This document shows, piece after piece, positions 38,403-52,949 of a stretch of DNA of 64,000 nt. The stretch's first letter is position 1. Each line of letters begins with the position of its first letter. Under the pieces are notes generated by a model. That model had not been told where the DNA came from and did not search any database. It saw only the letters and a program-made list of their open reading frames with translations. The stretch comes from Desulforapulum autotrophicum (GTDB taxonomy: Bacteria > Desulfobacterota > Desulfobacteria > Desulfobacterales > Desulfolunaceae), in contig DYJE01000019.1 in the NCBI GenBank assembly GCA_020723285.1, forward strand, positions 15,074 through 79,073. The letters run 5' to 3'. The translations under genes and the position numbers were made by a program.

Positions 38403-38874
38403 CAGCAGCGCTCCTTTTCGCAATGGGGATTTTAGGACTGTGTGGAACATGACGGTGGCAATCCGTACAATGTGCTTTAGACTGCATATTCACTTCTTTG
38501 ACCACGGTGGAATGGCACCGGAGGCAGTTTTCCTGAACAACCTCCATCGTGTTTTTTCCGGGATGAATGTAATCGGGAACCTGTTTTGTGGCTGTCACAA
38601 ACATGTCCCTTGCACCTTCTTTGGTTTTAAAAGGGATTTTCCGGATTATATCATGTGGCGCATGACATTCGTTGCAGGCCTGTTTACTGTGAACAGATTT
38701 GCTGTGGGACAATGCGGCTTCCGCCATGGAGTGGCATCCGCCGCAGAATGCCGCCTGGTCCGTTGCTGTCATGGCGCGGGCTGAACACAAGGTGATCACA
38801 GCACCTGCCGCAAACGGCAACAGAATCAAAAGCCAGGCCTTTTCTCCCTTCATTTTCTTCCATGATAATGCCAT
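38395..38874 (-). CDS. nrfH: NapC/NirT-family tetrahaem quinol dehydrogenase NrfH
   Basis: One TM helix and four CXXCH motifs (CGGCH, CNECH, CLRCH, CTDCH). The ATG at 38874 is preceded by AGGAGG. Confidence 0.9.
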   Translation of the reverse strand: MALSWKKMKGEKAWLLILLPFAAGAVITLCSARAMTATDQAAFCGGCHSMAEAALSHSKSVHSKQACNECHAPHDIIRKIPFKTKEGARDMFVTATKQVPDYIHPGKNTMEVVQENCLRCHSTVVKEVNMQSKAHCTDCHRHVPHSPKIPIAKRSAADV

Positions 38875-38959
38875 GGAGCCTCCTTTGTTTTGTTTGAAAC
38901 AATCAGGATTCCTACGAAATACAACCAAACAACCACCAACTGCTATAACACCTTGAATC

Positions 38960-39655
38960 TTAGTGCGGGAGCATAAGCCCGCAAAGAACATCGTGCATCA
39001 CCCGGTTGATACGTTCAAACCGTTCAGGCTCTGAAAGTATTTCATGTTCAGCCTGGACAAAATAACTCCCATCCAGATCGGACCCGCAATGGTTTATCAA
39101 AGCCCTTGCCGATTCCATGGTCGTTTCCAGATGAAACTGTAACCCCACAATTCGGTTATCTTTGATAAACCCCTGATGGTCACAGGCCATGCTCGACGCA
39201 AGCGGCGTGGCTCCTTGGGGGATTTCAAACCGGTCTCCATGCCAGTGAAACACATTGAGCTTTTCAGGAAAGCATCCCGCCAGTACCGTATTGGAGATCC
39301 TGGGATCGATGGATAGTGGAAACCATCCAATTTCCCGGTGTTTGTTTTTAGTGACGGATGCGCCCATCACCTCTGCGATCAACTGGGCTCCAAGACAGAT
39401 GCCCAGAATCATTTTCCCGCGAGCAATGGCGTGTTTGATGAAGATTTTTTCATCATGCAAAAAGGGGTATTCTTTTTCGTCGTATACCCCCATGGGGCCA
39501 CCCATGATGATGAGAAAATCAAACGCATCCATATCCGGCAGGCGGTCGCCTCGGTACATATGGCTCGATGTCATCTCATGGTGGCCTGATAAAAAAAATG
39601 GTTCCATACTCCCAAGGTCTTCAAAGGGAACGTGTTGCAGATGATGGACACGCAT
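38960..39655 (-). CDS. Class I glutamine amidotransferase-like protein
   Basis: Nucleophile elbow GICLGAQL and a later FHLE His/Glu region. Confidence 0.7.
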   Translation of the reverse strand: MRVHHLQHVPFEDLGSMEPFFLSGHHEMTSSHMYRGDRLPDMDAFDFLIIMGGPMGVYDEKEYPFLHDEKIFIKHAIARGKMILGICLGAQLIAEVMGASVTKNKHREIGWFPLSIDPRISNTVLAGCFPEKLNVFHWHGDRFEIPQGATPLASSMACDHQGFIKDNRIVGLQFHLETTMESARALINHCGSDLDGSYFVQAEHEILSEPERFERINRVMHDVLCGLMLPH

Positions 39656-39739
39656 ATCGAATTCCTTTCATATGTTTTAATGGTTTGGCTGAATATGTTC
39701 ATGAGTCCACCGAAGCTTTCGTGCCCATGTATATCATAT

Positions 39740-40303
39740 TTACACTTTTTTTCGGTATAAATCAGGGTAAAGTTTCATCGCACACTCGCGACAAAGCCCA
39801 TGGCTAAAATCGGCTTCGGAGTGTTTTTTAATATACCCTTCCATTCGGCTCCAATGCCCCTCTTCATCCTTTATGCGTTTGCATGATGAGCAAATCGATA
39901 ATAGCCCGCTCAAAATTTTGATATCTTCCAGGGCCTTTTCCCTCTGAAGAACTTCTATCTCCCTTTTTTGTTCAATCGTTTTTCTATGAAGTCCTATGGA
40001 GGCCGTTACCCATATTGCCAATAAAGAAATGGCCCTGTTGAAAATGACTTTCCACATGTCTGAGACCTGGGGTTTGTAAAAACACATGCCAATGGTAAAA
40101 AGGGATGAAATTACAGTAACAAAAATTGTAAACTCTTTTCGGGGTGCCCACAGAGAAAACAAGACAGCCACAATATAGAGTACTCCAACAGCAACACCAA
40201 GAGGAATGATGGCATCAAGAGACATAATAAAAATGATATAAAAAAAGCATATAAAATAAATTGAATAGTCGTTAAGGATTTTTTTGAGTCTCTGGACTGG
40301 CAT
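39740..40303 (-). CDS. 4-TM membrane protein with coiled coil and C-terminal CxxC...H...CxxC module
   Basis: Four hydrophobic helices, then ICSSCKRIKDEEGHWSRMEGYIKKHSEADFSHGLCRECAMKLY. Confidence 0.6.
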   Translation of the reverse strand: MPVQRLKKILNDYSIYFICFFYIIFIMSLDAIIPLGVAVGVLYIVAVLFSLWAPRKEFTIFVTVISSLFTIGMCFYKPQVSDMWKVIFNRAISLLAIWVTASIGLHRKTIEQKREIEVLQREKALEDIKILSGLLSICSSCKRIKDEEGHWSRMEGYIKKHSEADFSHGLCRECAMKLYPDLYRKKV

Positions 40304-40370
40304 GGATACCCCACCCTGTTTGAAATTTGATGTTCTTCACACTTTTTCAGATTAAGCACGCGCCACTTTT

Positions 40371-41423
40371 TTAACGGTTCTTTCCCATATGGGCAATAAA
40401 CATCCGGTATTGCTGGTCGGGAACGCTGCTTTTCCAATGCCCGGTAATGATGGCGGTATAGACCAGGATCAGGTATAAAGCGATAATCATAAGCCCCAGT
40501 TTTTTTTCCGTCCACCTCATTTTCAACCCGGTTGTTTTCAACATTAACGTTCCGTCAACCGGGCAACTGTCCACACAATCCATACAGCCGGTGCATTCCG
40601 GTGTTCTAACTTTTGGGATTTGCCCCACAAGGATATGATTCGGGCAGATGGCCGTACATTTACCGCATGCGATACATGATCCGTTATCCCTTGAAATATG
40701 TGTCGGGCCGGCATATGAAACAATCCCGGCCAGTGCCCCATAGGGGCAAAGATATCGGCACCAGAAATTCCGAACAAACAGGGAGAAACAGACGAGAAGG
40801 CTAAGGCAGATGAGAGTTGTTCCCGACATGTGGGTAAAAAACAACAGCATTCGCACATCGGACGTTTTATAGTAAAAACTATTGAGAAACGCATTGGTTT
40901 CAACAGTATTCATTTGTACAATAATCCATAGAAAAAACCCCAGAAAAATATATTTGACGCTTCTTAACGGCAGATCTACCCACCGTGGAAAAATGAAAGA
41001 GGGCATACCCCAATGATGGCCAAGCCTGAATATCCATTCCGACAAGGTGCCTACAGGGCAGAACCATCCGCAAAACGATTTGCTGAGCAGAAAAGAAGCC
41101 ACCAATGCGAATCCGAATATTACCATTGCCGCCGGATGAATACTGTCCCACTGAGCGGTGGTGATAAAATATTTCCAGCCCAGCAACGCACCAATGGGCA
41201 GGAAACCCTCAACGCCATGGGGTTTTGGAATGGTGATGGGCACTGCTTGCGCGGCTTGATGGACATACAAGGCGAATTGAACGCCTGTTGCAAGAGTCGC
41301 GATAAAAACACCCGTCTGGACCCATGACCGGACGCGGTGTCGATGAAACAATAGACTTAAGGTCTTTATCCGGCCACGATTCAAAGGTTGATTTTTTTTA
41401 TCGGAGATACCCATGACGTCCAT
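40371..41423 (-). CDS. NapH/MauN-type membrane polyferredoxin (quinol dehydrogenase-like)
   Basis: Two CX3CP motifs (CGWFCPVG, CRYLCPYG) in the membrane part, and two 4Fe-4S motifs (CIACGKCTAICP, CTGCMDCVDSCP). Confidence 0.75.
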   Translation of the reverse strand: MDVMGISDKKNQPLNRGRIKTLSLLFHRHRVRSWVQTGVFIATLATGVQFALYVHQAAQAVPITIPKPHGVEGFLPIGALLGWKYFITTAQWDSIHPAAMVIFGFALVASFLLSKSFCGWFCPVGTLSEWIFRLGHHWGMPSFIFPRWVDLPLRSVKYIFLGFFLWIIVQMNTVETNAFLNSFYYKTSDVRMLLFFTHMSGTTLICLSLLVCFSLFVRNFWCRYLCPYGALAGIVSYAGPTHISRDNGSCIACGKCTAICPNHILVGQIPKVRTPECTGCMDCVDSCPVDGTLMLKTTGLKMRWTEKKLGLMIIALYLILVYTAIITGHWKSSVPDQQYRMFIAHMGKNR

Positions 41424-42905: not shown

Positions 42906-43598
42906 CTAATGATGGTTGAATATTATTTTCAATACCTTTGGAATAAAAAAAGAACCGATAAAAAGAAATACCGATAAGAAGACGTTCCAGTTCAAAAGGC
43001 CGCTCAGGTCACCGCTGGCTAAAACGTTTTTAACCGTCCCCACGAAAAAAGTGAACACAAAAGTCCCCACGATAATCCCCAGAGCCGTTCCCGCAGTGTA
43101 ATCCCTGAAACGGACTTTTGTGAGGCCCATGCCGAAGTTCATGGGCGTGAAAGGGAAATACACCAGACGAAGGTAAAGAACCGTGGCAAAACCGTTGCGT
43201 TCAATGGCGTCGTCGTACTGTTTCAGTTTTCCGCCGATGAGGCTTTCCGCGAAATCCCGGCCCAGGTAACGCCCGATGAAAAAGGCGAGGCTTGCGCCGA
43301 TCATGGCCCCGGTCCAGACCCAGAGGAACCCCCAATAAGGGCCGAACACGGCAGCCCCGATGGCGGCGAGCAGGGTGCCCGGAAGAAAAAGGCAGACCCC
43401 CGCCGCATAAATCAGGACATAAACAAGGGGAGCCCACAACCCGGCAGAGTCAAGAAGAAGGGCGAGCCGTTCTGCCGTCACATGGTTTTTAAGGGGTGAA
43501 AAACGGAGCAGCGTCACCGCCGCGATCATAAAGCAAACGAGAAGCGCCGCTTTGATCCATGGCCGTTTGGCCCTTTGTTTCACATTGAGATCAGGCAT
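42906..43598 (-). CDS. TVP38/TMEM64 (DedA-related) family membrane protein
   Basis: Multi-TM protein whose sequence (FLPGTLL, GRYLGRDF) I recognise as typical of the family. Confidence 0.7.
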   Translation of the reverse strand: MPDLNVKQRAKRPWIKAALLVCFMIAAVTLLRFSPLKNHVTAERLALLLDSAGLWAPLVYVLIYAAGVCLFLPGTLLAAIGAAVFGPYWGFLWVWTGAMIGASLAFFIGRYLGRDFAESLIGGKLKQYDDAIERNGFATVLYLRLVYFPFTPMNFGMGLTKVRFRDYTAGTALGIIVGTFVFTFFVGTVKNVLASGDLSGLLNWNVFLSVFLFIGSFFIPKVLKIIFNHH

Positions 43599-43610
43599 TA
43601 TGGGCCGCCT

Positions 43611-43928
43611 TTATTTTCCAAGAATTCGGTTCAAAAGCCCTTTTTTTTCGAGATGGGGTTCGGGAAGCCCGAGATGTCGGCAGATGCAGACTTCGACCTC
43701 GTGTTCGGAGATGTCGGCCCCTTCGACAACGACTTCGTCCCCCACCATGACCGCCGGGGCTACCGGAAGATCCAGATCGAAGTATTCGTCAGTCTGGTAC
43801 TCATCCTTGGGTTTGGATGTCACGGTGATGTCAACGTCATACTTTCCGCCCAGCCTGGGCATCATCTTTTTGAAGTTCTTTCAAGGTCTTCCGTTGGGTT
43901 CATTCAGAAAAAAACGGATATTCAGCAT
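43611..43928 (-). CDS. Candidate small thioredoxin-fold selenoprotein (in-frame TGA at 43881-43883)
   Basis: Strong RBS AAGGAGAACACC-ATG at 43928. Reads MLNIRFFLNEPNGRP-U-KNFKKMMPRL... in frame with the track ORF 43611-43865, which itself has no RBS. The C-terminal LPVAPAVMVGDEVVVEG resembles the cis-Pro/beta3-beta4 region of small thioredoxin-like proteins. Confidence 0.6.
43848..43860 (-). other. SECIS-like hairpin GCCCA-GGC-UGGGC, 20 nt after the UGA
   Basis: Read directly from the minus strand. Confidence 0.4.
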
Positions 43929-43940
43929 GGTGTTCTCCTT

Positions 43941-45704
43941 TTATGGTTTTGTGCTTTCTTTCGAAATGCGGTTCATGTGGACCAGGAATTTTTCAGGGGG
44001 TAAATAATCCACCAGCCTCAGATCATTTCGTTCCTCACCGGCAGAATCGAGGAACACCAGGGTGGGGACGCCCTTGATGCCGTACTGTTTAAGCAACTGT
44101 TCGTGATTCGGATCGCCACCCTGGGTTACATCAACTTTGACCATGGTGAACGTGTCTTTTGTTTTTCTGACCACGTCGGGGTGGTGGAACGTCACCGTGT
44201 CAAGTTCGCGGCACGGGGTGCACCAGTCGGCGTAAAAATCAATGATGACAGGGCGTTTTTCTGCTGCGGCTTTTTGAAGAACAGCCTCGGAGTATGGCTG
44301 CCAGGCTACACCTGGTCCTTTCATCATCCATGCGGTGATCCACATCGAAGCGGTGATAAGACACACACAACCAGTGGCGGCTTTGACAATTGAGAACACC
44401 TTCGACCCTGTTTCTGTTTTTTCCAGCCAGCCCAGGTGAATGCCAGCGGATAATGCGAGGGCCGCAGGCAGAAGAACTTTCAGCCCTTCGGGGAGGACTG
44501 GTCGGATGAAATGGGCCGCCATGCCCACAAGAACCCAGCCCATGAGTTTTCGGACCCAGATCATCCAGCCGCCTGCGCGGGGAAGTCGTTGAAGCTGACC
44601 GGAGAAGAGGGCAAGGATGAAAAGGGGAAGCCCTAGTCCAAGGCTCAATGTGAAAAATACAAGAAAACCCATGAAGGCGCTGCCCATACCTGCCACCCAG
44701 GTCAGAAGTCCCAGCACAAAGGGACCGATGCAGGGGGCGGCAACAACGCCGATGGTCAGCCCCATGAACAGGCTTCCGAAATAGCCGCTGTACGAGCGAC
44801 CGGCCATCCGGGTCATGGCTCCGGGCAGGCGAAGTTCCCAGAATCCGAAAAGACTGGTGGAGAACAGGATGAGAAAACCAGCGACAAAAGAAAGCACCAG
44901 GGGATTCTGGAGCATTGACCCCATCAGGCCGCCGGTCAGGGCCGCAGCCACCCCAAGGATGGAATTGGTGAGGGCGAGGCCCAAAAGGTAGCAGAGGCCG
45001 TGGAGAACAAGGACAAACTGACCTGGCCTGCTGTCGGCTGTTTTGCCTCCAAAAAACGACACAGTGATGGGGATCATGGGATAGACACACGGGGTTAAAT
45101 TCAGGGCGAGACCGCCGAAAAAGATGCCCAGAAGCGTGAGAAAAAGGCCCCAGCCTTTGACAGACCTTCCGGAATACGATCCCGATGCATCTTTCGGTGA
45201 CAGGGCAAGATCCACGGGGGTTGTTCCATAGGGCATGCCACGCTGCTGCCATTCTGGGAAACCATAGGGATCGCGGTAAACGTGACGGTAACCGAGTTTA
45301 ACGGCCACACGGGCCGCCGAGTCGCTGCGGACTCATGTAAGGCCCGCTCAGTAGAACACAATGCCCCGGTTTTTGTCCGGACCCAGAAATTTCCCGAGGG
45401 ATTCAGACTTACGCCACCTGGCCCACCCGGTGGGTTCCATGGGGAAATTCACCGCGCCCTTCATGTGGCCGGTCCGGAATTCCCATTCCTGGCGAGTGTC
45501 CACCAGAAGCAAACCGGACGGATTCTCCCGGTATTTTTGAATGAGTTCGTCGGTTTTAAGGATCGTGTAGCCGCCCCTTGCCGCCTCGGCGAGCACATCG
45601 TCCCATGTGGCCTGTTTCGGTGTGGCCGGGCGCTGGATAGACCAGACGGAAGCCACCGCAACGGCCACTGCGAGTAACGTCAGTAAAAAGGATGTTTTTT
45701 TCAT
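43941..45704 (-). CDS. Candidate selenoprotein: signal peptide - rhodanese (Y-U-AGLT-U-VRS) - DsbD/CcdA membrane domain - thioredoxin fusion, with two in-frame TGA codons (45348-45350 and 45333-45335)
   Basis: Track ORFs 45348-45704 and 43941-45308 are in the same frame, separated only by TGA-GCG-GGC-CTT-ACA-TGA. The rhodanese fold continues across both TGAs (IVFY|U|AGLT|U|VRSDSAARVAVKLGYRHVYRDPYGFPEWQQRGMPY). The DsbD-beta motifs TPCVYPMIP and AAPCIGPF and the C-terminal WCTPC thioredoxin motif are present. Confidence 0.65.
45302..45316 (-). other. SECIS-like hairpin after the second rhodanese UGA
   Basis: CGGCC-CGUGU-GGCCG starting 16 nt after the UGA. It overlaps the lower stem of the previous structure, so the two are alternative folds. 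Confidence 0.35.
45311..45345 (-). other. SECIS-like stem-loop after the first rhodanese UGA
   Basis: GGGCC-UUACAU-GAGUC-CGCAGC-GACUC-GGC-GGCCC. The upper stem starts 13 nt after the UGA. Confidence 0.4.
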
Positions 45705-45730
45705 TTCATTCGGCCTCCGGATTGTTTTTT

Positions 45731-46060
45731 TTAGTGAGTCCAGTCCATGATCTTGAAATCTTCACCCAGTTTTTTTTGAACAGCATCCCGGATCATTGAA
45801 AAATGTGGGCAAGGCATACCGATTGGGTTTCCCTTTGAAATGCATGATGCAAAAACAATAGCTTCGGCCCCACGATCAACCATGAGTTTTGCCCTTTGAA
45901 TGGATCGTTTGCCTGGACATCCGCCACAACTGACAAAACCTATGATTTCAACCGGTCCGGTGGCTTCAAACGCCATTTTCCCAGTGGAAGCGACTTTAAA
46001 ATCCGTCGTACCGGGGCACATATCCTCGGTCTGTTGACACCTGATAATTCCAACTTTCAT
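45731..46060 (-). CDS. CGGC-domain protein
   Basis: VSCGGCPGKR signature plus additional conserved Cys residues. RBS AGGAGA. Confidence 0.7.
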   Translation of the reverse strand: MKVGIIRCQQTEDMCPGTTDFKVASTGKMAFEATGPVEIIGFVSCGGCPGKRSIQRAKLMVDRGAEAIVFASCISKGNPIGMPCPHFSMIRDAVQKKLGEDFKIMDWTH

Positions 46061-46063
46061 CGA

Positions 46064-46726
46064 TCATCTCCTAAGTGTATTTTCAAACAAAAGAGTCACA
46101 AAACCTTCGTCCAGCGATTCTTTTCCAAGTTCATTCATGCCTTCTGGGGGCGGTAGAATGCTGGATTGTTCCTTTCTGAACAAGAAACCGGCTTCCTCTG
46201 CCATGGCTTTGACCTCATCCCTTTGATAGAATCTGGCGTGTCTGTAAATAACATGCCCTTTCTTGCCTCTTGCGGAATGGTACAGCCCCCAGGCGCTGTT
46301 TGACGGAACAAAGCCGATGATAAGGCGTCCCCGCCTTTTGAGCACACGGCTGCATTCACGAAGCACCCGTAAAGGATCATGGAGAAAGCAGAGGGTGCAC
46401 ACCATCAGCAGTCCGTCAAAAGAAGTATCTTTGAACGGCAGGTGTTCTCCCATGGCCTGGCAGGTCATAATGCCCCTACTGGACGCGATCATTGCCATGG
46501 ATCGCGAAGGCTCCACACTATGGCCGATGCCGAATGCCTGAGCGAAACGTCCTGAACCCGAACCCACCTCCAGCCATTTTCCCGTCGGGACCCCGAGGAT
46601 CTGATTCAGGGCTTCACGTTCCTGTGAAAAAATGAAAGACCCTTTTTCAGAGTCAAACCAGTGGTCGTATTCTTCCGCAAAATCGTCAAAAGGGTTGTTC
46701 CAAATCGACATGCCGCACGATTCCAC
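46064..46726 (-). CDS. Class I SAM-dependent methyltransferase
   Basis: Motif I LEVGSGSGRF and a Methyltransf_11-like layout. The start may instead be the ATG at 46711. Confidence 0.75.
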   Translation of the reverse strand: MESCGMSIWNNPFDDFAEEYDHWFDSEKGSFIFSQEREALNQILGVPTGKWLEVGSGSGRFAQAFGIGHSVEPSRSMAMIASSRGIMTCQAMGEHLPFKDTSFDGLLMVCTLCFLHDPLRVLRECSRVLKRRGRLIIGFVPSNSAWGLYHSARGKKGHVIYRHARFYQRDEVKAMAEEAGFLFRKEQSSILPPPEGMNELGKESLDEGFVTLLFENTLRR

Positions 46727-46728
46727 GA

Positions 46729-47037
46729 TTACCCCCGTCCCCAGAGCGGATCGTCACCGAACCGTTCTTGCCAAAGTTCTTCGGGAGTCAGGTTTTCACC
46801 CACGGACACTTCGGAAAAAGAAAAACGATAATTGGCGCAGTACTCCGTGATGGTCTTGTACGCGGCCACGATCTTTCTGGTCATGTCCGCACAAGTTTCC
46901 GGGTTGTCCCGACATCGGTCCGGATGCCATTTCGCCAGCATGGCCCGGTACGCCGATTTGACGGTTTTCAGGCTGGCTGTTTCAGGAAGACCAAGGATCG
47001 TCCGCGCTTCCGTGATCTCCTGGTATTTTTTCAGCAT
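46729..47037 (-). CDS. J-domain (DnaJ-like) protein
   Basis: LGLPETASLKTVKSAYRAMLAKWHPDR, including the HPD tripeptide. Confidence 0.75.
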   Translation of the reverse strand: MLKKYQEITEARTILGLPETASLKTVKSAYRAMLAKWHPDRCRDNPETCADMTRKIVAAYKTITEYCANYRFSFSEVSVGENLTPEELWQERFGDDPLWGRG

Positions 47038-47492
47038 GATTCGTCCCGTCGTCCTTCCCGCTCAAGCTTCGATATCATAAACGTCGCGCCTCTTTGGGAC
47101 AGCCCCAGGGTTTCGGCCAGGGTTTTCACATCCAGCGAACCCTTCTCTCGCCTGAGCGAAAGGACTTCGTCCTCAAGTTCCTCGAACCAGTCCTCGAACA
47201 GGACAAGCAGGTCCGGGTCGGTTATGGCCGACAACTGCCTGGATTGGGCCACTTTGTCCACCAGACTCTGGCACATCTTTGTTGGGTCGATACCTTCGCC
47301 CATGCATTCAGCGATTCAGAGGTGGACCATTCCGGACATCTTGTCATCGCCAGAATCGTCCAGAAGATTCATGAAAAACCGAGTTGCCGCGTCTTTGTCC
47401 ATCACTGAGAAAAGCTTTTTCAGCGTACTTCCGATGTCCTTCAGCGCCTGTTCCGGGTCCATGTTTTCGACGATGTTCAGAATATTTTTCAT
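47031..47492 (-). CDS. Candidate selenoprotein with a U-x3-C motif (in-frame TGA at 47316-47318) and a winged-helix-like C-terminus
   Basis: RBS AAGGAAG precedes the ATG at 47492. 58 codons are followed by TGA and then IAEC-MGEG..., in frame with track ORF 47031-47303, which has no RBS. The gene starts 19 nt after the arsR stop. Confidence 0.6.
47284..47301 (-). other. SECIS-like hairpin GGGCGA-AGGUA-UCG(A)CCC, 14 nt after the UGA
   Basis: Read directly. It has a GGU-containing apical loop and a single bulged A. Confidence 0.4.
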
Positions 47493-47511
47493 TTTTGTTT
47501 GACTTCCTTGT

Positions 47512-47847
47512 TTAAAACGTCTTCCGTGCTTTCAACAGATCTTCCGCCACGGTGTTCAGCGACCGGATCACGTCCAGTATTTTTTTGTCTGCCAGCTCGT
47601 AAAAAACAAAAGGGCCGCTTCGTTCTACATTTAATAGAATCGACCGTTTCAATTCCTTGAGATGATGCGACACAAGAGGCTGTGAAATACCAATTTCTTC
47701 CACGATCTGACCCACGGATTTCTTGCCTTGGCCAACGTAAAGCAAAATACGTAGTCGGTTTGGATCGGAAAGGGATTTAGCCAACAGAGAAACGCATTGA
47801 AGATAATCGTCATTTAGCATTTTTGCTTTCTTGATCAAAAAAATCAT
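47512..47847 (-). CDS. ArsR/SmtB-family transcriptional regulator
   Basis: DPNRLRILLYV...VGQIVEEIGISQPLVSHHLKELK winged-HTH signature. The canonical ELCVCDL metal-binding site is absent. Confidence 0.85.
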   Translation of the reverse strand: MIFLIKKAKMLNDDYLQCVSLLAKSLSDPNRLRILLYVGQGKKSVGQIVEEIGISQPLVSHHLKELKRSILLNVERSGPFVFYELADKKILDVIRSLNTVAEDLLKARKTF

Positions 47848-47873
47848 AAGGTTGATATCAGCTTGATATAAAC

Positions 47874-47893
47874 ATATAAATATTCATTTATAT
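47874..47893. promoter_or_regulatory. Operator-like palindrome ATATAAAT-ATTC-ATTTATAT upstream of arsR
   Basis: 8-bp perfect arms, 27 nt upstream of the arsR ORF start. An adjacent TTGATAT direct repeat lies at 47852-47869. Confidence 0.35.
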
Positions 47894-48074: not shown

Positions 48075-48249
48075 TTTTCACACAAAGCGTGATTCGGGAT
48101 AGGAGTTTTCACGATTCCGGTGGTAAATTTCACACAAAGCGTGATTCGAAAATTAAGCTTTTACGATCACAGATTTTTTTGATAATCGGATTTGCACGAT
48201 CCGGGAAAGAGCAGTTTGCACGGCTACAACGAAAAGTTTTCACGATTCC
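48075..48249 (+). repeat. Array of seven same-orientation TTT(T/G)CAC(G/A)-type repeats at the right edge of the insert
   Basis: Copies start at 48075, 48106, 48128, 48159, 48191, 48215 and 48237, spaced 22-32 bp apart. 48075-48127 and 48128-48180 form an imperfect 53-bp tandem. The last copy supplies the new fdhA stop codon. Confidence 0.7.
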
Positions 48250-50864
48250 CAGCAGTTACCTTCCCTGAAATGAAACGCCATCCACACCATGCCGGCCGGA
48301 ACTTCGTCGGTGATCCGGGCTTTGACCGAAACAGCGCCGCGCCGTGAGGAAACCCTGATGACCTCCCCGTCGGCGATGCCCATGCGACGGGCATCATCGG
48401 CCGAGATGTCGGCGGTCTCCTCACCGAGAAGCTCGTTCAGCCCTTGGGTTCTGCCGGTCTGGGTCCGGGTGTGGTAATGGTACAGGCGTCGGCCTGTGGA
48501 GAGAACCAAGGGGTATTCCGTGTCCGGCACTTCCGCAGGCGGGGTCCACACTGCCGGGGTGATGTTGCCTTTGCCGCAGGTGAAATTCCCGTTCAGGTGG
48601 AGAATGGCCGTACCGGGGTGTTCTTTGGTCGGACAGGGCCACTGGAGGCCGTCTCCCTCGATCCGCCCAAACGTGATTCCGGCGAAAATCGGGCAGAGCG
48701 CGGCGATCTCCCTGTCCCAGATGTCCTTGGAACTGGCGGAGGTCCAGGTGTGGCCCATGCGTCTTGCAATCTCCCGGAATATCCACCAGTTGGGCCGAGC
48801 CTGGCCCGGCGCGGGACAGGCTGCCCTAACGCGGCTCACCCTGCGCTCGCAGTTGGTGAACGTGCCGTCATCCTCGCTCCAGGCCGCAGACGGAAACACC
48901 ACATGGGCGAACCGTGTGGTTTCCGTTTCGAAGATATCCTGGCAAACCAGGAATTCCGCGCTGGAGAGTTCATGTTCCACCTTGGCGATATGGGGTTCCG
49001 CGCTGGCCAGGTTTTCGCCGAAAATGTACAGCGCCCGGATCTTCTTCGTCACCAGCCCTTCGAGCATCTGGGGGATCATCAGGCCGTTTTTATCCGGAAG
49101 GTCCTGAACGTTCCATGCGTCTTCGAATTTTTTCCGGGCTGCTGCGTCGGTCACGCTCTGGTATCCGGGAAACACGTTGGGCAGCGCCCCCATGTCACAG
49201 GCTCCCTGCACGTTGTTCTGCCCGCGTAAGGGATTCACCCCGCCGCATTCCACGCCCAGGTTCCCCAGAAGCATCTGGAGATTGGCCACCGACGCCACGT
49301 TGTCGCGGCCGCAGGTGTGTTCGGTGAGGCCCAGGGTGTACATCAGCATCATGGGTTTCACCGATGCGGCCATACGGGCTGTCCTGACAATCAGATCGCT
49401 GGGAATGCCACAGATTTCAGCCGCTTTTTCCGGCGTGTAATCCATGACGGTTTCCCTGAGTTTTTCAAAGTTCACCGTGTGGTTTTCGATGAATGCCTTG
49501 TCGTACAGGTTTTCCGTGATGAGGACGCGCATCACGCCGTTCAGAAACGCGATGTCCGTGCCCACTTTGATCTGGACGAACAGGTCGGCAAACCGGGCCA
49601 GGGTGTGTTTTCTCGGATCGACCACAATCAGTTTCGCACCCTGACGCACAGCGTTCTTGACAAACGTCGACGCCACGGGATGGGCCTCGGTCATGTTGGC
49701 TCCGATGACAAAGAACATCTTGGCGTTTTTCACTTCCTTCAGGCTGTTGGTCATGGCCCCGGATCCGAAGGTGGTGGCGAGCCCGGCCACGGTGGGCGCG
49801 TGGCAGACCCTGGCGCAGTGGTCGATGTTGTTGGTCTTGAACACGGCCCTGAACAGCTTCTGCATCTGGTAGGAATCTTCGTTGATGCTCCGGGCGCAGC
49901 TGACCCCGGCCACGGCATCCGGCCCATGCTCGGCAATGATCCGTGAGAAGGTGGACGCCACAAGATCAAGGGCCTCGTCCCAGGACGCGGGTTCAAGCAC
50001 GCCGTTTGTCCGGATCAGCGGGGTTTTCAGGCGGTCTGGGGAACTGATGAAATCATAGCCGAAACGCCCTTTGACACACAGGCGGCCCTGGTTGGGTTCG
50101 GCATTTTCCACGGCTGAAATATGAACGATTTTTCCATTCTTCACATGAAGCATCTGCTGGCAGCCCACCCCGCAGTACGGGCAGGTGGTTCTGACGCTTT
50201 GGGTCTCGCACAGCCGGGGCTTCTGAAAAGCGTCTTTCGGGACCAGAGCGCCGACGGGACAGGCCTGGATGCACTGGCCGCAGAACACACAGTCCGAATC
50301 CTTGAGGGCCATGTCGCCCTTGGCGATGATTTTCGTTTTCGCCCCACGGTATCCGAAGTCGATGGCGTCGTTCACCTGGATTCCCCGGCAGGCCTGGACA
50401 CACCGGCCGCAGAGAATGCATTTGGCGAAATTGCGAACGATCAGGGGGTTTACCGCTTCCATGGGGTAGGACGTGCGGGTGTCCGGGTATCTTCCGCCCT
50501 TGACCTGATAGCGGTAAGCCAGCTCCTGAAGCCGGCAGCCTCCGGACGCCGGGCAGACGAGACAGTCGTCGTGTCTGCCTGATGAAAGCATCAGTTCGAC
50601 GATGGTCTTTCGGGACTGGATGACCACCGGGGAGTCGGTACGGACCACCATACCTTTGGCCGCCGGAACAGTGCAGGCCGTCATCAGACTTCGCGCGCCC
50701 TCGACCTCCACCACGCAGATCCGGCAGGCCCCCGTGGGTGTGGTGTCTTTCAGGTGGCAAACCGTAGGGATGTCTATACCCGCGTTGCGGGCGGCTTCAA
50801 GTATGGTCTGACCCGGACTGAACACCACGTCCCGGCCGTTGATCACCAACAGGTTTTCGCTCAT
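48240..50864 (-). CDS. fdhA: Formate dehydrogenase alpha subunit (NuoG-like Fe-S N-terminus plus molybdopterin domains), Cys-type, 3'-truncated by insertion
   Basis: 2Fe-2S and 4Fe-4S motifs at the N-terminus. The active-site region HCARVCHAPTVAGL has Cys where Sec-type enzymes have U. The protein ends ...MAFHFREGN-CWES-stop and lacks the conserved NxLT...PEFK.CAV..EK tail, which is found at 32004-32102. Confidence 0.85.
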   Translation of the reverse strand: MSENLLVINGRDVVFSPGQTILEAARNAGIDIPTVCHLKDTTPTGACRICVVEVEGARSLMTACTVPAAKGMVVRTDSPVVIQSRKTIVELMLSSGRHDDCLVCPASGGCRLQELAYRYQVKGGRYPDTRTSYPMEAVNPLIVRNFAKCILCGRCVQACRGIQVNDAIDFGYRGAKTKIIAKGDMALKDSDCVFCGQCIQACPVGALVPKDAFQKPRLCETQSVRTTCPYCGVGCQQMLHVKNGKIVHISAVENAEPNQGRLCVKGRFGYDFISSPDRLKTPLIRTNGVLEPASWDEALDLVASTFSRIIAEHGPDAVAGVSCARSINEDSYQMQKLFRAVFKTNNIDHCARVCHAPTVAGLATTFGSGAMTNSLKEVKNAKMFFVIGANMTEAHPVASTFVKNAVRQGAKLIVVDPRKHTLARFADLFVQIKVGTDIAFLNGVMRVLITENLYDKAFIENHTVNFEKLRETVMDYTPEKAAEICGIPSDLIVRTARMAASVKPMMLMYTLGLTEHTCGRDNVASVANLQMLLGNLGVECGGVNPLRGQNNVQGACDMGALPNVFPGYQSVTDAAARKKFEDAWNVQDLPDKNGLMIPQMLEGLVTKKIRALYIFGENLASAEPHIAKVEHELSSAEFLVCQDIFETETTRFAHVVFPSAAWSEDDGTFTNCERRVSRVRAACPAPGQARPNWWIFREIARRMGHTWTSASSKDIWDREIAALCPIFAGITFGRIEGDGLQWPCPTKEHPGTAILHLNGNFTCGKGNITPAVWTPPAEVPDTEYPLVLSTGRRLYHYHTRTQTGRTQGLNELLGEETADISADDARRMGIADGEVIRVSSRRGAVSVKARITDEVPAGMVWMAFHFREGNCWES

Positions 50865-50897: not shown

Positions 50898-52832
50898 TTA
50901 TGTGTGACAAACCTCCGCAAGAATCCGTAAATCCCCGTTCCGTACCGTGAATCCCACAGAATCCAGGTATTCGAAAACAGGGACGGACGTGCTGCGGCTG
51001 TTTCCCGTAATCTCTTGACAATCGGCCAGGCAGACACTCCCGTGATTCAGGATGTGGCCTTTAACCCGTGTTTTGATGCGTTCCATCGTCCTTACGCTGA
51101 TGAACCGGTTGTTGTTCAGCTTGACCAGCAGATTCAGGCTGTGGAGAAAATAGCTCATCCGCCTGACCTTGTCTTCGTTCCAGGGTCCCTCGGTCTCCCG
51201 GCAGAACCGGCTGACACTGAACGGAACGGAACCCGACTGTTCCGCATAACCCAGAAGCCGCGCCTTCAGGCGTTCTTCGTCATCGGTGAGGGTGATGGAA
51301 AACCCCGGAACAGTATACCCGCCCTGGCTGCGGATCAGGCGGCCTTTTCCGCAGAGCGCCCGGACCGCCTCCTGAATCAGGTCCATGGAAACGGGGCGGT
51401 CCAGCGCGTCGCGGATCTCGTTTGAATTCACCTGACTTTTCAGGGATCCCTGCTCCACTGTCCGCCGTGCGGCGTGATACACCCGCTCCACGAGCTCCGG
51501 GACATAATCGGACAGGTACACGCCACCATCGCCGGTTTTCATGACCGTTCTGTCCGCCTGTTTTCTGTTGAACGCTTCGCGGATCCGTTCAAGGGAAAAA
51601 CCGGACCGCGCCGCAAGGTCCTGTGCGAAAACCGGTGCGTTCACCGACTGAACAAGAACGGCGTCGACAAAACCTTCGGCATCATCGGACTGAAGTGCAT
51701 CGAGAACGGGGAGTATCCGCCCGGCGCGGTTTTCCGTGTATTTTTCCACCGGAATTTCAAGAATGACACCGCCTCCGATGATCCGGTTCCGGTTCATCAG
51801 GGCCACGACAAAGCGGTCTCGGGGATCAATGCTCACAGGCTCGGAAAACCGGAACTGAACAAACGCGCGGTTTCCGGGGTGTATCCCCTGCTGTTTCATC
51901 ACCACAGCCACAGCGTTCACACACAGGGTTCCGATGTACAGTTTGACCCGCATCCGGTTGTTCAGCGGGGTTCCGGCCGAAGCAAGAACACGCACATCGG
52001 CGTTGGCCAGCGAGGATACGACCCCGGTGCCGGGTTGCCTGAGACTCATGCCCCGGCATACATCCGTGAGGGTGGTTTTGTTGAGATTGATCCCTATGCG
52101 CTGCCCCGCTGCGGCATGATCCACCCGGACGCCATGGGATTCAAGAAACCGCGCCCGTGTTTTCAGGCCCGAAGGCATGATCTCCACCTGCTCGTCCCGG
52201 TTCAGCGTTCCTGACAGCACCGTTCCGCTGACCACCGTTCCAAATCCACTGATTCCGGTGATCCGGTCGATCCACAGACGGAACGGCCGGAGATGGCTCC
52301 GGCATGCCATGCGGCAGGCCTCTTTCATGATGCTGTCCCGGATCTGAGCGGACCCTGAAAGGTCCATGGCGGAAAAGGCCACGACCTCCTTTCCCTCAAG
52401 AAAACTACCATGGATCAGCTCACGGATTTCCAGTTCAGCCAGCTCCAGCGTTTCATCGTCCACAAGATCGGATTTGGTCAGGACCACCAGTCCGCCTTTG
52501 GCGCTGAAAAATTTCAGTATTTCAAGATGTTCCACGGTCTGAGGCATCACCCCGTCGTCCGCGGCCACGATCAGCAGGGCCAGATCCACGCCGCTCAGTC
52601 CGCGCACCGTATTCCGAAGAAAATCCGTATGGCCGGGGACATCCACCAGGGCCAGACTGATCCCGTTTTCGGAAAGCCAGGATGCGATGCCCGACTCCAT
52701 GGACATGCCGCGCCGCTGTTCTTCTTTCATCCGGTCTGTGTCAACGCCGGTAAGGCACCGGACCAGGGTGGTTTTCCCATGATCCACATGCCCGGCGACA
52801 CCGATGGTGATATATTGCGTCATATCGTTCAA
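50898..52832 (-). CDS. selB: Selenocysteine-specific translation elongation factor SelB
   Basis: GTPase motifs AGHVDHGKTTL and DVPGH, the TKSD box, and a long C-terminal winged-helix extension. It is adjacent to tRNA-Sec. Confidence 0.9.
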   Translation of the reverse strand: MNDMTQYITIGVAGHVDHGKTTLVRCLTGVDTDRMKEEQRRGMSMESGIASWLSENGISLALVDVPGHTDFLRNTVRGLSGVDLALLIVAADDGVMPQTVEHLEILKFFSAKGGLVVLTKSDLVDDETLELAELEIRELIHGSFLEGKEVVAFSAMDLSGSAQIRDSIMKEACRMACRSHLRPFRLWIDRITGISGFGTVVSGTVLSGTLNRDEQVEIMPSGLKTRARFLESHGVRVDHAAAGQRIGINLNKTTLTDVCRGMSLRQPGTGVVSSLANADVRVLASAGTPLNNRMRVKLYIGTLCVNAVAVVMKQQGIHPGNRAFVQFRFSEPVSIDPRDRFVVALMNRNRIIGGGVILEIPVEKYTENRAGRILPVLDALQSDDAEGFVDAVLVQSVNAPVFAQDLAARSGFSLERIREAFNRKQADRTVMKTGDGGVYLSDYVPELVERVYHAARRTVEQGSLKSQVNSNEIRDALDRPVSMDLIQEAVRALCGKGRLIRSQGGYTVPGFSITLTDDEERLKARLLGYAEQSGSVPFSVSRFCRETEGPWNEDKVRRMSYFLHSLNLLVKLNNNRFISVRTMERIKTRVKGHILNHGSVCLADCQEITGNSRSTSVPVFEYLDSVGFTVRNGDLRILAEVCHT

Positions 52833-52857: not shown

Positions 52858-52949
52858 TGGAAGGGGCAAGGGGAATCGAACCTCCTCTTTGCGTTTCAGG
52901 CAAAGCCGACGGTTTTGAAGACCGCGGGGCGCCCAGCACCATTGCCCCT
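52858..52949 (-). tRNA. selC: tRNA-Sec (anticodon UCA)
   Basis: 92 nt with anticodon loop CUUCAAA, a long variable arm (CGGCUUUGCCUGAAACGCAAAGAGG), T-loop GGTTCGATTCC, an 8-bp acceptor stem AGGGGCAA/TTGCCCCT and an encoded CCA. Folded by eye only. Confidence 0.8.

What the first reader, a model, noticed from the sequence alone, without database searches (positions are those of the whole stretch)
42906..47893. ArsR-headed eight-gene operon carrying three predicted selenoproteins (four UGA codons)
Seen: eight minus-strand genes are packed with overlaps or gaps of 20 nt or less. In order they are arsR, a U-x3-C protein, a J-domain protein, a SAM methyltransferase, a CGGC protein, a rhodanese-DsbD-thioredoxin fusion, a small thioredoxin-like protein, and a TVP38/DedA-like protein. 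Three of them are coherent only if TGA is decoded (47316-18, 45348-50, 45333-35, 43881-83). The interrupting codon is TGA every time, never TAA or TAG. Each interruption falls where a redox-active Cys would be expected or next to a Cys. Each is followed 13-20 nt later by a GC-rich hairpin. In two cases only the longer reading has a Shine-Dalgarno sequence. selB and tRNA-Sec lie 3-5 kb away. Inference: this is a thiol/selenol redox relay spanning the membrane. It is combined with a metalloid-type regulator, a methyltransferase and a DedA-like membrane protein. From memory only (unverified), DedA-family proteins have been linked to selenite uptake or resistance. This suggests chalcogen or metalloid (Se/Te/As/S) handling. 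I do not know of a described system with this composition.
Basis: partly seen in the sequence, partly recalled or inferred. Interest (0 to 1): 0.92.

Follow-up and report, generated by a model that had tools for sequence, protein, structure and literature searches.

The report
Known Tso three-selenoprotein operon
This gene cluster really does encode three selenocysteine-containing proteins behind an ArsR-type regulator, but it is an instance of the "Tso" three-selenoprotein operon that was described in 2025 and whose biochemical job is still unknown.

Summary
Eight co-oriented minus-strand genes (42906-47847) include three that need four in-frame UGA codons read as selenocysteine. SelB and tRNA-Sec lie 3-5 kb away.

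In 80 related Desulfobacterota loci, the same positions are TGA in 79/80 (TsoA), 56/56 (both TsoB sites) and 50/50 (TsoC). Each UGA is followed by a conserved hairpin where synonymous codon variation is strongly suppressed (p = 1e-4 to 5e-6).

The system is not undescribed. NCBIfam equivalog models name the parts TsoR, TsoA, TsoB and TsoC, all above their curated cut-offs. A 2026 review attributes the Tso (three selenoprotein operon) system to Haft & Tolstoy 2025.

By homology and topology, TsoB is a DsbD-type transmembrane electron conduit. Its periplasmic N-terminal domain is a rhodanese with a U-x4-U loop. TsoC is a cytoplasmic thioredoxin-fold protein.

TsoR lacks conserved sensor residues and is almost always paired with TsoA. 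More distant Met-rich, non-Sec relatives of TsoA also sit behind TsoR-like regulators, in one case upstream of a bona fide arsM.

My best guess is a metalloid- or chalcogen-responsive selenol relay directed at the periplasm. Its function is untested. The J-domain/methyltransferase/CGGC insertion is specific to this locus.

The parts
47874..47893 (-). Candidate TsoR operator, the palindrome ATATAAAT-GAAT-ATTTATAT (core TATAA-N8-TTATA), upstream of tsoR
   Evidence: The exact core TATAA-N8-TTATA occurs within 350 nt upstream of tsoR in 26/78 related loci, against 18/5120 (0.4%) control windows. Binding has not been tested.
47512..47847 (-). tsoR, an ArsR/SmtB-type regulator
   Evidence: NF045707 TsoR scores 151 bits against a cut-off of 115. 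Pfam HTH_5 matches. There are no conserved Cys or His sensor residues across 84 orthologues.
47031..47492 (-). tsoA, a selenoprotein of 153 aa with motif H-L-U-I-A-E-C plus a conserved Cys74 and a C-terminal FeoC-like helix-turn-helix region
   Evidence: NF045695 scores 218 bits against a cut-off of 170. The Sec position is TGA in 79/80 orthologues. Relatives hit FeoC and HTH_24. It has no TM segment or signal sequence.
47316..47318 (-). Sec (UGA) codon of tsoA
47283..47302 (-). SECIS-like hairpin of tsoA (GGGCGA-AGGUA-UCG.CCC)
   Evidence: The hairpin is conserved in 76 sequences. Codons 65-69 are almost invariant at synonymous sites.
46729..47037 (-). J-domain protein (HPD motif); its start overlaps the tsoA stop
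   Evidence: Pfam DnaJ scores 42.8 bits. The same small family follows tsoA in a subset of related loci.
46064..46726 (-). Class I SAM-dependent methyltransferase (not ArsM)
   Evidence: Methyltransf_11 scores 60 bits. The ArsM model scores only 21.5 bits against a cut-off of 263, and the DVU_1556 family 54 against 155. The same type occurs near 9/80 Tso loci.
45731..46060 (-). CGGC-domain protein, an insertion specific to this locus
   Evidence: PF08821 scores 101 bits. No tblastn hit in any of the 80 related loci.
43941..45704 (-). tsoB, encoding a signal/anchor, a periplasmic rhodanese with a U119-x4-U124 loop, a DsbD-type 8-TM domain (Cys206, Cys325) and a periplasmic thioredoxin domain (WC495TPC498)
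   Evidence: NF045694 scores 951 bits against a cut-off of 805. The DsbD profile NF001419 scores 247 bits over residues 188-580. Pfam Rhodanese, DsbD_TM and Thioredoxin all match.
45348..45350 (-). First Sec codon of tsoB, at the rhodanese catalytic position
45333..45335 (-). Second Sec codon of tsoB, in a 2-residue loop insertion
45301..45335 (-). Two adjacent conserved hairpins after the tsoB UGAs (45318-45335, which contains the second UGA, and 45301-45317)
   Evidence: Conserved in 58 sequences. Synonymous variation is suppressed, p = 4.6e-6.
43611..43928 (-). tsoC, a selenoprotein of 105 aa with motif NEPNGRPU and a thioredoxin fold
   Evidence: NF045708 scores 149 bits against a cut-off of 45. 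The Sec position is TGA in 50/50 loci. Cys-form homologues exist. The AF2 model of a homologue has pLDDT 78 and a thioredoxin fold, and Foldseek returns thioredoxins and ArsD.
43881..43883 (-). Sec codon of tsoC
43847..43861 (-). SECIS-like hairpin of tsoC (UGCCC-AGGCU-GGGCG)
42906..43598 (-). VTT/DedA-superfamily (TVP38-like) membrane protein
   Evidence: PF09335 scores 89 bits against a cut-off of 33.9. Found downstream of tsoC in 19 of 66 loci with enough sequence.
50898..52832 (-). selB (context: Sec decoding machinery)
   Evidence: TIGR00475 scores 277.6 bits against a cut-off of 242.25.
52858..52949 (-). tRNA-Sec (context)
   Evidence: ARAGORN. Rfam RF01852 scores 51.1 bits against a gathering threshold of 47.

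Best explanation
This is a member of the Tso (three selenoprotein operon) system of Desulfobacterota: tsoR-tsoA-[J-domain, methyltransferase, CGGC]-tsoB-tsoC-VTT.

Shown here:
- All four UGAs are decoded as Sec.
- TsoB has the domain order and topology of DsbD, except that the periplasmic N-terminal acceptor domain is a rhodanese. Its catalytic Cys is Sec, and a second Sec sits five residues later.
- TsoC is a cytoplasmic thioredoxin-fold protein with a single Sec at the CxxC position.
- TsoR lacks conserved ligand residues and is almost always adjacent to TsoA.

Inferred mechanism, by analogy with DsbD:
- Cytoplasmic reductant (thioredoxin/TrxB, possibly via TsoC) reduces the two transmembrane cysteines of TsoB.
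- These reduce the periplasmic WCTPC thioredoxin domain, which keeps the U-x4-U loop of the rhodanese domain in the diselenol state.
- That loop then acts on a periplasmic soft electrophile, either by reduction or by transfer of S, Se or As.
- TsoA (U59, C63 and C74, plus a FeoC-like helix-turn-helix) most likely binds the inducer. It would work with TsoR at a TATAA-N8-TTATA operator, or act as a chaperone.
- The most likely inducer or substrate class is an arsenic-type metalloid or thio-metalloid. Reactive sulfur or selenium species are the next best candidates.
- The methyltransferase, VTT membrane protein, J-domain protein and CGGC protein are variable accessories.
For: Identity: all four NCBIfam Tso models score above their curated cut-offs. 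The literature names the system.

Sec decoding: TGA is conserved in 79/80, 56/56 and 50/50 loci. Hairpins are conserved. Synonymous variation is suppressed. TsoC has Cys homologues. SelB and tRNA-Sec are present.

Relay: the DsbD profile scores 247 bits over the TM and thioredoxin domains. TsoB has a signal/anchor, 8 TM segments and conserved PC motifs at C206 and C325. The first Sec aligns with the rhodanese catalytic Cys. A thioredoxin reductase gene (TIGR01292, 357 bits against 343) lies next to Tso in about 14/80 loci.

Regulatory pair: TsoR lies directly upstream of TsoA in 79/80 loci. TsoB is present in only 50 of 66 loci with enough downstream sequence. TsoR has no conserved Cys or His. 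Five of six distant Met-rich TsoA relatives lie behind TsoR-like ArsR genes. The operator motif is about 95-fold enriched upstream of tsoR.

Metalloid hint: a bona fide arsM (NF008823, 361 bits against 263) follows a distant pair. ArsM-like Sec methyltransferases occur in 8/80 Tso loci, and in four of them directly after tsoA. ArsD appears among the structural matches of TsoC.
Against: - No experiment bears on function, and no substrate has been identified.
- The window's own methyltransferase is not ArsM (21.5 bits against a cut-off of 263).
- No arsB/acr3 or arsC lies in the cluster.
- TusB/C-like sulfur-relay genes occur in 6 loci and the rhodanese fold points equally to sulfur chemistry.
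- The TsoA structure model is unreliable around the Sec (pLDDT below 50 for residues 46-91), so the three-ligand site is only a sequence inference.
- Whether TsoC donates electrons to TsoB is a guess.
- Hairpin covariation is minimal because the stems are almost invariant.
- I could not read the primary paper, so its authors may have evidence or proposals that differ.
Confidence: 0.6

Rival explanations
1. The system handles reactive sulfur species (polysulfide, persulfide, sulfane sulfur) in the periplasm of a sulfate reducer. The rhodanese diselenol loop would act as a sulfurtransferase or polysulfide reductase, kept reduced by the DsbD-type conduit. TsoR would act like the sulfur-sensing ArsR relatives BigR and SqrR.
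For: The rhodanese domain carries Sec at the catalytic position. TusB/TusC(DsrE/F/H)-like genes follow tsoA in 6 loci, alongside thioredoxin reductase and Lpd-like reductases. Among named regulators TsoR also resembles BigR, at 46 bits. All hosts are Desulfobacterota.
Against: TsoR has no conserved cysteine pair, which BigR and SqrR need. The BigR model is far below its cut-off (46 against 155). ArsM-type methyltransferases recur with TsoR-TsoA. Ordinary Cys rhodaneses suffice for sulfur transfer, so obligate Sec is unexplained.
Confidence: 0.2
2. The system handles selenium or tellurium oxyanions, by uptake, reduction and methylation. The VTT/DedA protein would import or export selenite, the rhodanese would carry a perselenide, and the methyltransferase would volatilise Se or Te.
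For: A DedA protein has been linked to selenite uptake and resistance (Ledgham 2005, via PMC8679861). A methyltransferase and a VTT gene lie in the window. The operon sits 3 kb from selB and tRNA-Sec.
Against: VTT is present in only 19/66 loci and the window-type methyltransferase in 9/80, so neither is core. No selD, yedE/yedF or other selenium-trafficking gene is in the cluster. Proximity to selB is not conserved evidence.
Confidence: 0.12
3. TsoB is simply a housekeeping DsbD/CcdA-type reductant supplier for periplasmic protein disulfide isomerisation or cytochrome c maturation. This would fit the nearby nrfHA genes. The other genes would be unrelated neighbours.
For: There is strong DsbD homology. 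nrfH and nrfA lie about 4-6 kb downstream in the window and near Tso in several relatives.
Against: The DsbD alpha domain that contacts DsbC, DsbG and CcmG is replaced by a double-Sec rhodanese. The gene order R-A-B-C is conserved across dozens of genomes under an ArsR-type regulator. The genes are tightly packed or overlapping.
Confidence: 0.05
4. The TGAs are real stops, from split genes, pseudogenes or sequencing errors, and no selenoprotein is made.
For: Single-sequence hairpin energies are not significant (z = -0.5 to -1.1). Public gene callers split these genes at the UGA.
Against: TGA is conserved at all four positions in 50-79 independent genomes, with conserved peptide on both sides. 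Synonymous variation is suppressed over the hairpins. Cys-form TsoC homologues exist. Curated selenoprotein models match. SelB and tRNA-Sec are adjacent.
Confidence: 0.01

Closest known systems
Tso (three selenoprotein operon) system: TsoR, TsoA, TsoB, TsoC, sometimes with TsoX/TsoY. Haft & Tolstoy 2025, mSystems 10:e0141724, as listed in review PMC13188914; NCBIfam NF045707/NF045695/NF045694/NF045708.
   Same: All four core proteins score above the curated equivalog cut-offs. The gene order R-A-B-C matches. The motifs UxxxC, UxxxxU and NEPxGxxU match. The host lineage is the same.
   Different: Here a J-domain gene, a small methyltransferase and a CGGC gene are inserted between tsoA and tsoB. 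The CGGC gene was found in none of 80 related loci. The TsoA motif reads L-U-I-A-E-C rather than L-U-L-A-x-C. No TsoX or TsoY lies in the cluster.
DsbD (E. coli), and DsbD-superfamily variants with alternative N-terminal domains such as ScsB (recalled from memory)
   Same: TsoB has an 8-TM core with two essential-type cysteines and a C-terminal periplasmic thioredoxin CxxC domain. The presumed electron flow runs from the cytoplasm through the TM domain and thioredoxin domain to the N-terminal domain.
   Different: The immunoglobulin-like DsbD alpha domain is replaced by a rhodanese domain with two selenocysteines. The operon is under an ArsR-type regulator. The substrates are unknown.
Single-domain rhodanese sulfurtransferases and Cdc25/Acr2-type rhodanese-fold arsenate reductases
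   Same: The fold matches, and the position of the catalytic nucleophile matches.
   Different: The nucleophile is Sec. The active-site loop is two residues longer and carries a second Sec (FYUAGLTUVRS against FYCGG--FRS). The domain is fused to DsbD and exported.
ars operons (ArsR, ArsD, ArsM) and the SmtB-SmtA pair
   Same: An ArsR/SmtB-family regulator heads the operon. TsoC is a thioredoxin-fold small protein with ArsD among its structural matches. ArsM-type methyltransferases accompany TsoR-TsoA in some genomes. The regulator plus a small soft-ligand-rich protein forms a two-gene unit, as in smtB-smtA.
   Different: There is no ArsB/Acr3, ArsA or ArsC. TsoR lacks the ArsR CVC site and the SmtB alpha5 site. 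The window's methyltransferase is not ArsM.
SAO (Sec-assisted organometallic) system. Haft & Gwadz 2023, as cited in PMC13188914.
   Same: It is another multi-selenoprotein operon, proposed from comparative genomics to act on soft-metal or organometallic chemistry.
   Different: The protein families differ (for example the MerB-like SaoL), and so do the host lineages. No shared component was found here.

Membership tests
Tso three-selenoprotein operon (NCBIfam equivalogs) | TsoR model NF045707 at or above the 115-bit cut-off | tested here: met
   151 bits.
Tso three-selenoprotein operon (NCBIfam equivalogs) | TsoA model NF045695 at or above 170 bits, with the LULAxC Sec motif | tested here: met
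   218 bits. The motif is L-U-I-A-E-C, with Ile where all 79 compared orthologues have Leu.
Tso three-selenoprotein operon (NCBIfam equivalogs) | TsoB model NF045694 at or above 805 bits, a rhodanese/DsbD fusion with UxxxxU | tested here: met
   950.8 bits. The motif is U119-AGLT-U124.
Tso three-selenoprotein operon (NCBIfam equivalogs) | TsoC model NF045708 at or above 45 bits, with the NEPxGxxU motif | tested here: met
   148.8 bits. The motif is NEPNGRPU.
Tso three-selenoprotein operon (NCBIfam equivalogs) | Co-oriented gene order tsoR-tsoA-tsoB-tsoC | tested here: met
   The order is kept, with three extra genes between tsoA and tsoB.
Bacterial selenoprotein gene (general criteria) | In-frame UGA conserved in orthologues, with homology on both sides | tested here: met
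   79/80, 56/56, 56/56 and 50/50.
Bacterial selenoprotein gene (general criteria) | Stem-loop (bSECIS) whose apical loop lies about 16-37 nt after the UGA (range recalled from the literature) | tested here: met
   Conserved hairpins. Loops begin 20 nt (TsoA), 18 or 36 and 21 nt (TsoB) and 25 nt (TsoC) after the UGA. Synonymous variation is suppressed. No dedicated bSECIS predictor was available.
Bacterial selenoprotein gene (general criteria) | Cys-containing homologues aligned at the Sec position | tested here: inconclusive
   Met for TsoC (P0279, P0281, P0288, P0274, P0295, P0297). No Cys form was seen for TsoA or TsoB among the sequences examined. The W residues in public proteins are code-4 translations of UGA.
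Bacterial selenoprotein gene (general criteria) | Sec machinery in the genome (SelB, tRNA-Sec, SelA, SelD) | tested here: met
   SelB and tRNA-Sec are in the window. SelA and SelD were not looked for.
DsbD family | TM domain with two conserved cysteines, plus a C-terminal thioredoxin CxxC domain | tested here: met
   NF001419 scores 247 bits over residues 188-580, below the full-length cut-off of 330. C206, C325 and WC495TPC498 are present.
DsbD family | N-terminal immunoglobulin-like DsbD-alpha domain | tested here: not met
   Residues 1-187 do not match the DsbD profile and are instead a rhodanese domain.
Rhodanese sulfurtransferase | Catalytic Cys in a six-residue active-site loop | tested here: not met
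   The nucleophile position is Sec, and the loop has a 2-residue insertion with a second Sec.
ArsR/SmtB metal(loid) sensors | Winged-helix HTH_5 domain | tested here: met
   PF01022 scores 52 bits and NF033788 scores 72.5 against a cut-off of 55.
ArsR/SmtB metal(loid) sensors | A known ligand site (alpha3 CxC, alpha5 His/Asp/Glu, or a BigR-type Cys pair) | tested here: not met
   No conserved Cys column, and 24/84 orthologues have no Cys at all. The only conserved His residues are in the DNA-recognition SHHL motif.
ars operon | ArsM, ArsB/Acr3 or ArsC present | tested here: not met
   The window's methyltransferase scores 21.5 bits against the ArsM cut-off of 263. No transporter or ArsC hit was found among the eight genes.
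Thioredoxin-fold proteins (TsoC) | beta-alpha-beta-alpha-beta-beta-alpha fold with the active residue at the N-terminus of helix 1 | tested here: met
   AF2 model of Cys-form homologue P0279 (66% identical), pLDDT 78. Foldseek top hits are thioredoxins, at E = 9e-4 and TM 0.5-0.59. The motif is GxxU rather than CxxC.
DedA/VTT superfamily | VTT domain PF09335 above the gathering score | tested here: met
   89 bits against 33.9.

The most novel reading that the evidence does not exclude
TsoR and TsoA form a two-protein sensor in which the ArsR-type repressor has lost its own ligand site, and a separate small protein supplies it.

In Tso systems that site would be a selenocysteine-containing U-x3-C-x10-C cluster, making TsoA a selenoprotein dedicated to sensing. 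The ancestral Met-rich, non-Sec versions of the pair control arsM or stand alone.

On this reading, Tso is a selenium-dependent branch of metalloid (arsenic or thioarsenic type) sensing and detoxification. Its variable cargo includes the TsoB/TsoC relay, Sec-ArsM-like methyltransferases, TsoY and TusBC-like proteins.
Probability: 0.25. Interest if true: 0.65.

Novelty: already known. Interest (0 to 1): 0.35.

Why it matters
Tso is one of very few operons that encode several obligate selenoproteins. Among the sequences compared, TsoA and TsoB have no cysteine-only counterparts, which implies chemistry that sulfur cannot do. Its function is unknown.

Knowing what a periplasmic double-selenocysteine rhodanese fed by a DsbD-type conduit acts on would bear on metalloid and sulfur cycling by sulfate-reducing Desulfobacterota in anoxic sediments and soils. 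It would also bear on why bacteria keep costly Sec decoding.

For the genome scan, the main lesson is that the first-stage reader correctly recognised a genuine multi-selenoprotein operon from raw sequence. The system, however, is already curated and published.

Tried and rejected
1. Single-sequence folding of the 60 nt after each UGA gave hairpins, but with insignificant z-scores of -0.5 to -1.1. I therefore used comparative evidence instead.

2. Covariation in the hairpins is almost absent, because the stems are nearly invariant. I replaced this test with a synonymous-codon entropy test.

3. I considered a possible fourth selenoprotein. The methyltransferase stop is TGA (46064-66) and lies in frame with the CGGC ORF. 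I rejected the idea because there is no hairpin (z = +1.2), an AGGAG Shine-Dalgarno sequence precedes the CGGC ATG, and no CGGC partner exists in related loci.

4. The TsoA structure prediction was unreliable (pLDDT 63.8, and below 50 around the Sec). I did not use it for fold search.

I used homologues instead.

6. The primary paper (Haft & Tolstoy 2025) is not held. Only the review's statements could be used.

7. The promoter and terminator consensus scan was uninformative, with 4 promoter-like sites against 4.3 expected.

8. The source contig could not be retrieved beyond a 2.5-kb Logan contig.

9. Rfam gathering-threshold search found only tRNA-Sec.

10. I did not search for Cys forms of the TsoB rhodanese domain, and left the last large protein search unused.

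Full report
**Observation.**
The window carries eight co-oriented minus-strand genes between 42906 and 47847. Three of them translate coherently only if TGA is read through:
- a 153-aa protein, with TGA at 47316-18;
- a 587-aa rhodanese-DsbD-thioredoxin fusion, with TGA at 45348-50 and 45333-35;
- a 105-aa protein, with TGA at 43881-83.

Gene junctions are an overlap of 7 nt and gaps of 2, 3, 12, 12, 19 and 26 nt. One junction is therefore slightly above the stated 20 nt. tRNA-Sec (52858-52949) and SelB (50898-52832) are real.

**It is a named system.**
NCBIfam release 20 matches four of the proteins above the curated equivalog cut-offs:
- 'ArsR/SmtB-type metalloregulator TsoR', 151 bits against 115;
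- 'LULAXC motif selenoprotein TsoA', 218 against 170;
- 'NEPxGxxU motif selenoprotein TsoC', 149 against 45.

A 2026 review (PMC13188914) lists these families. [quoted passage not shown] The primary paper is not in the library. I therefore cannot say what function it proposes. The review gives none.

**Independent evidence that the UGAs encode Sec.**
A scan of one genome per species found TsoA relatives in 298 genomes. The 80 best are all Desulfobacterota (Desulfobacterales, Desulfobulbales, Syntrophobacterales), and the closest is 76% identical.

At the aligned positions the codon is TGA in 79/80 TsoA, 56/56 TsoB (both sites) and 50/50 TsoC, with conserved peptide on both sides. Each UGA is followed by a hairpin conserved across 51-76 sequences.

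The stems are nearly invariant, so covariation says little. Synonymous codon entropy is more informative. In the 14 codons after the Sec it is 0.60, 0.67 and 0.57 for TsoA, TsoB and TsoC. In the rest of each gene it is 1.39, 1.45 and 1.35 (p = 1.2e-4, 4.6e-6, 6e-4). This is the signature of an RNA element overlapping the coding sequence.

TsoC has genuine Cys-form homologues at the Sec position. 'Full-length' public TsoA and TsoC proteins that carry Trp at that position are code-4 gene-calling artefacts. For one of them the locus does not translate to the protein under table 11.

**Anatomy and likely mechanism.**
TsoB has the following layout:
- an N-terminal signal/anchor (residues 5-23);
- a rhodanese domain;
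- eight hydrophobic segments with the DsbD-type PC motifs at C206 and C325;
- a C-terminal thioredoxin domain (WC495TPC498) that aligns with the DsbD profile to its end.

As in DsbD, both soluble domains should therefore be periplasmic. In a PDB sequence search the first Sec aligns with the rhodanese catalytic Cys. The loop carries a two-residue insertion bearing the second Sec: FYUAGLTUVRS against FYCGG--FRS.

TsoA and TsoC have no hydrophobic segments. A model of a Cys-form TsoC homologue (pLDDT 78) is a thioredoxin fold with the Sec position at the N-terminus of helix 1. Foldseek returns thioredoxins, and also the ArsD arsenic metallochaperone.

The best-supported mechanism is therefore a DsbD-like relay. 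Electrons would pass from cytoplasmic reductant to the TM cysteines, then to the periplasmic thioredoxin domain, then to the periplasmic diselenol rhodanese loop. This is inferred by homology and has not been shown.

**Neighbourhood analysis.**
TsoR sits directly upstream of TsoA in 79/80 loci. Of 66 loci with at least 3 kb downstream, only 50 have TsoB, 48 have TsoC and 19 have a VTT gene. Other neighbours vary:
- thioredoxin reductase, about 14 loci;
- an OlsE-like membrane hydroxylase, 18 loci;
- ArsM-like Sec methyltransferases, 8 loci, in four of them directly after tsoA;
- the window-type small methyltransferase, 9 loci;
- the J-domain protein, about 14 loci;
- TusB/C-like proteins, 6 loci;
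- the membrane selenoprotein TsoY.

TsoR has no conserved Cys or His ligand positions, and 24/84 orthologues have no Cys at all. A palindrome with the core TATAA-N8-TTATA lies upstream of tsoR in the window (47874-47893). It also lies upstream of tsoR in 26/78 related loci, against 0.4% of control windows.

**TsoA relatives.**
A profile search of 1.8 billion representative proteins found distant, non-Sec relatives. In these the U-x3-C region is replaced by Met-rich sequence. The downstream 'PxxMC' motif and a FeoC-like helix-turn-helix region are kept.

Five of six such relatives that I could place on contigs are immediately preceded by an ArsR gene. Where tested, that gene's best NCBIfam match is the TsoR model, at 83-94 bits and below the cut-off. 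In one case the next gene is a bona fide arsenite methyltransferase (NF008823, 361 bits against 263). In two cases the pair stands alone.

So the TsoR-like/TsoA-like pair is an older two-gene module. TsoA is plausibly the ligand-binding partner or a chaperone, with U59, C63 and C74 as soft ligands. The neighbourhoods give a modest pointer to arsenic-type metalloids. This is inference. The TsoA model is unreliable around the Sec.

**What is particular to this window.**
Three genes are inserted between tsoA and tsoB: a J-domain protein, a small methyltransferase and a CGGC protein. The CGGC gene has no counterpart in any of the 80 loci. TsoA reads L-U-I-A-E-C where all the others have L-U-L-A-E-C.

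The methyltransferase's TGA stop is in frame with the CGGC ORF. There is no hairpin after it, and there is a good Shine-Dalgarno sequence before the CGGC start, so I treat it as a normal stop.

**Comparison and verdict.**
The locus meets every membership test I could apply for the Tso system. It works like DsbD but is not a canonical DsbD, because it lacks the alpha domain. It contains a rhodanese fold but not a canonical rhodanese loop. Its regulator belongs to the ArsR family but has none of the known sensory sites. It is not an ars operon.

The claim that no such system has been described does not hold.

Novelty: already known, as a new instance with a local accessory-gene variant. Function remains untested. 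Interest is therefore moderate-low for the finding as stated. There is some upside if the TsoR-TsoA two-protein sensor idea and the metalloid link prove true and are not already in the primary paper.

Noticed in passing
window 48240-50864 (-): A formate dehydrogenase alpha subunit (TIGR01591, 791 bits) lies directly between the Tso operon and selB/tRNA-Sec. It is the Cys type (ARVCHAP), not the Sec type. It matches only profile positions 1-648 of 672 and ends at a TGA with no recognisable continuation in any frame.
   Followed up: partly
window 46061-46066 (-): The methyltransferase stop codon is TGA and lies in frame with the downstream CGGC ORF (TGA-TCG-ATG). There is no SECIS-like hairpin (z = +1.2), and an AGGAG Shine-Dalgarno sequence serves the CGGC start. 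It is probably an ordinary stop.
   Followed up: yes
window 47851-47873 (-): A second imperfect palindrome, GTTTATATCA-AGC-TGATATCAAC, lies between the candidate operator and the tsoR start codon.
   Followed up: no
L021:2446-2892: In this Desulfocapsaceae MAG the TsoA Sec position is AGA (Arg) instead of TGA, while TsoB and TsoC keep their TGAs. This could be a sequencing error or an inactivated TsoA.
   Followed up: no
L045:9283-9789, L046:9467-9967, L065:8034-8463: Some Tso loci carry two tandem genes with the N-x-P-x-G-x-P-U motif, that is, TsoC paralogues.
   Followed up: no
public protein collections (P0001-P0012, P0271-P0308, P0146): Many metagenome-derived 'full-length' TsoA and TsoC proteins have Trp at the Sec position, because short contigs were called with genetic code 4. 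Most other entries are truncated at the UGA. Database proteins for these families are therefore systematically wrong.
   Followed up: partly
window 36780-41423 (-); L022, L027, L034, L042, L059: nrfH-nrfA (cytochrome c nitrite reductase) and a NapH-like ferredoxin lie a few kb downstream of the Tso operon in the window. NrfH/NrfA-like genes recur at a similar distance in several related loci.
   Followed up: no
L031:5810-6778, L006:11175-12143: In loci without TsoB/TsoC, tsoA is followed (directly in L031) by a polytopic membrane protein that matches selenoprotein TsoY (NF047643, 438 bits against a cut-off of 250). In L006 and L017 it is followed by TusB/C-like genes and an Lpd/MerA-like flavoprotein.
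   Followed up: partly
L086:4552-5519, L093:3602-4516: Met-rich, non-Sec TsoA-like proteins paired with TsoR-like ArsR regulators occur as stand-alone two-gene units in unrelated metagenomic contigs. The arrangement is reminiscent of smtB-smtA, a regulator plus a metal-binding protein.
   Followed up: partly
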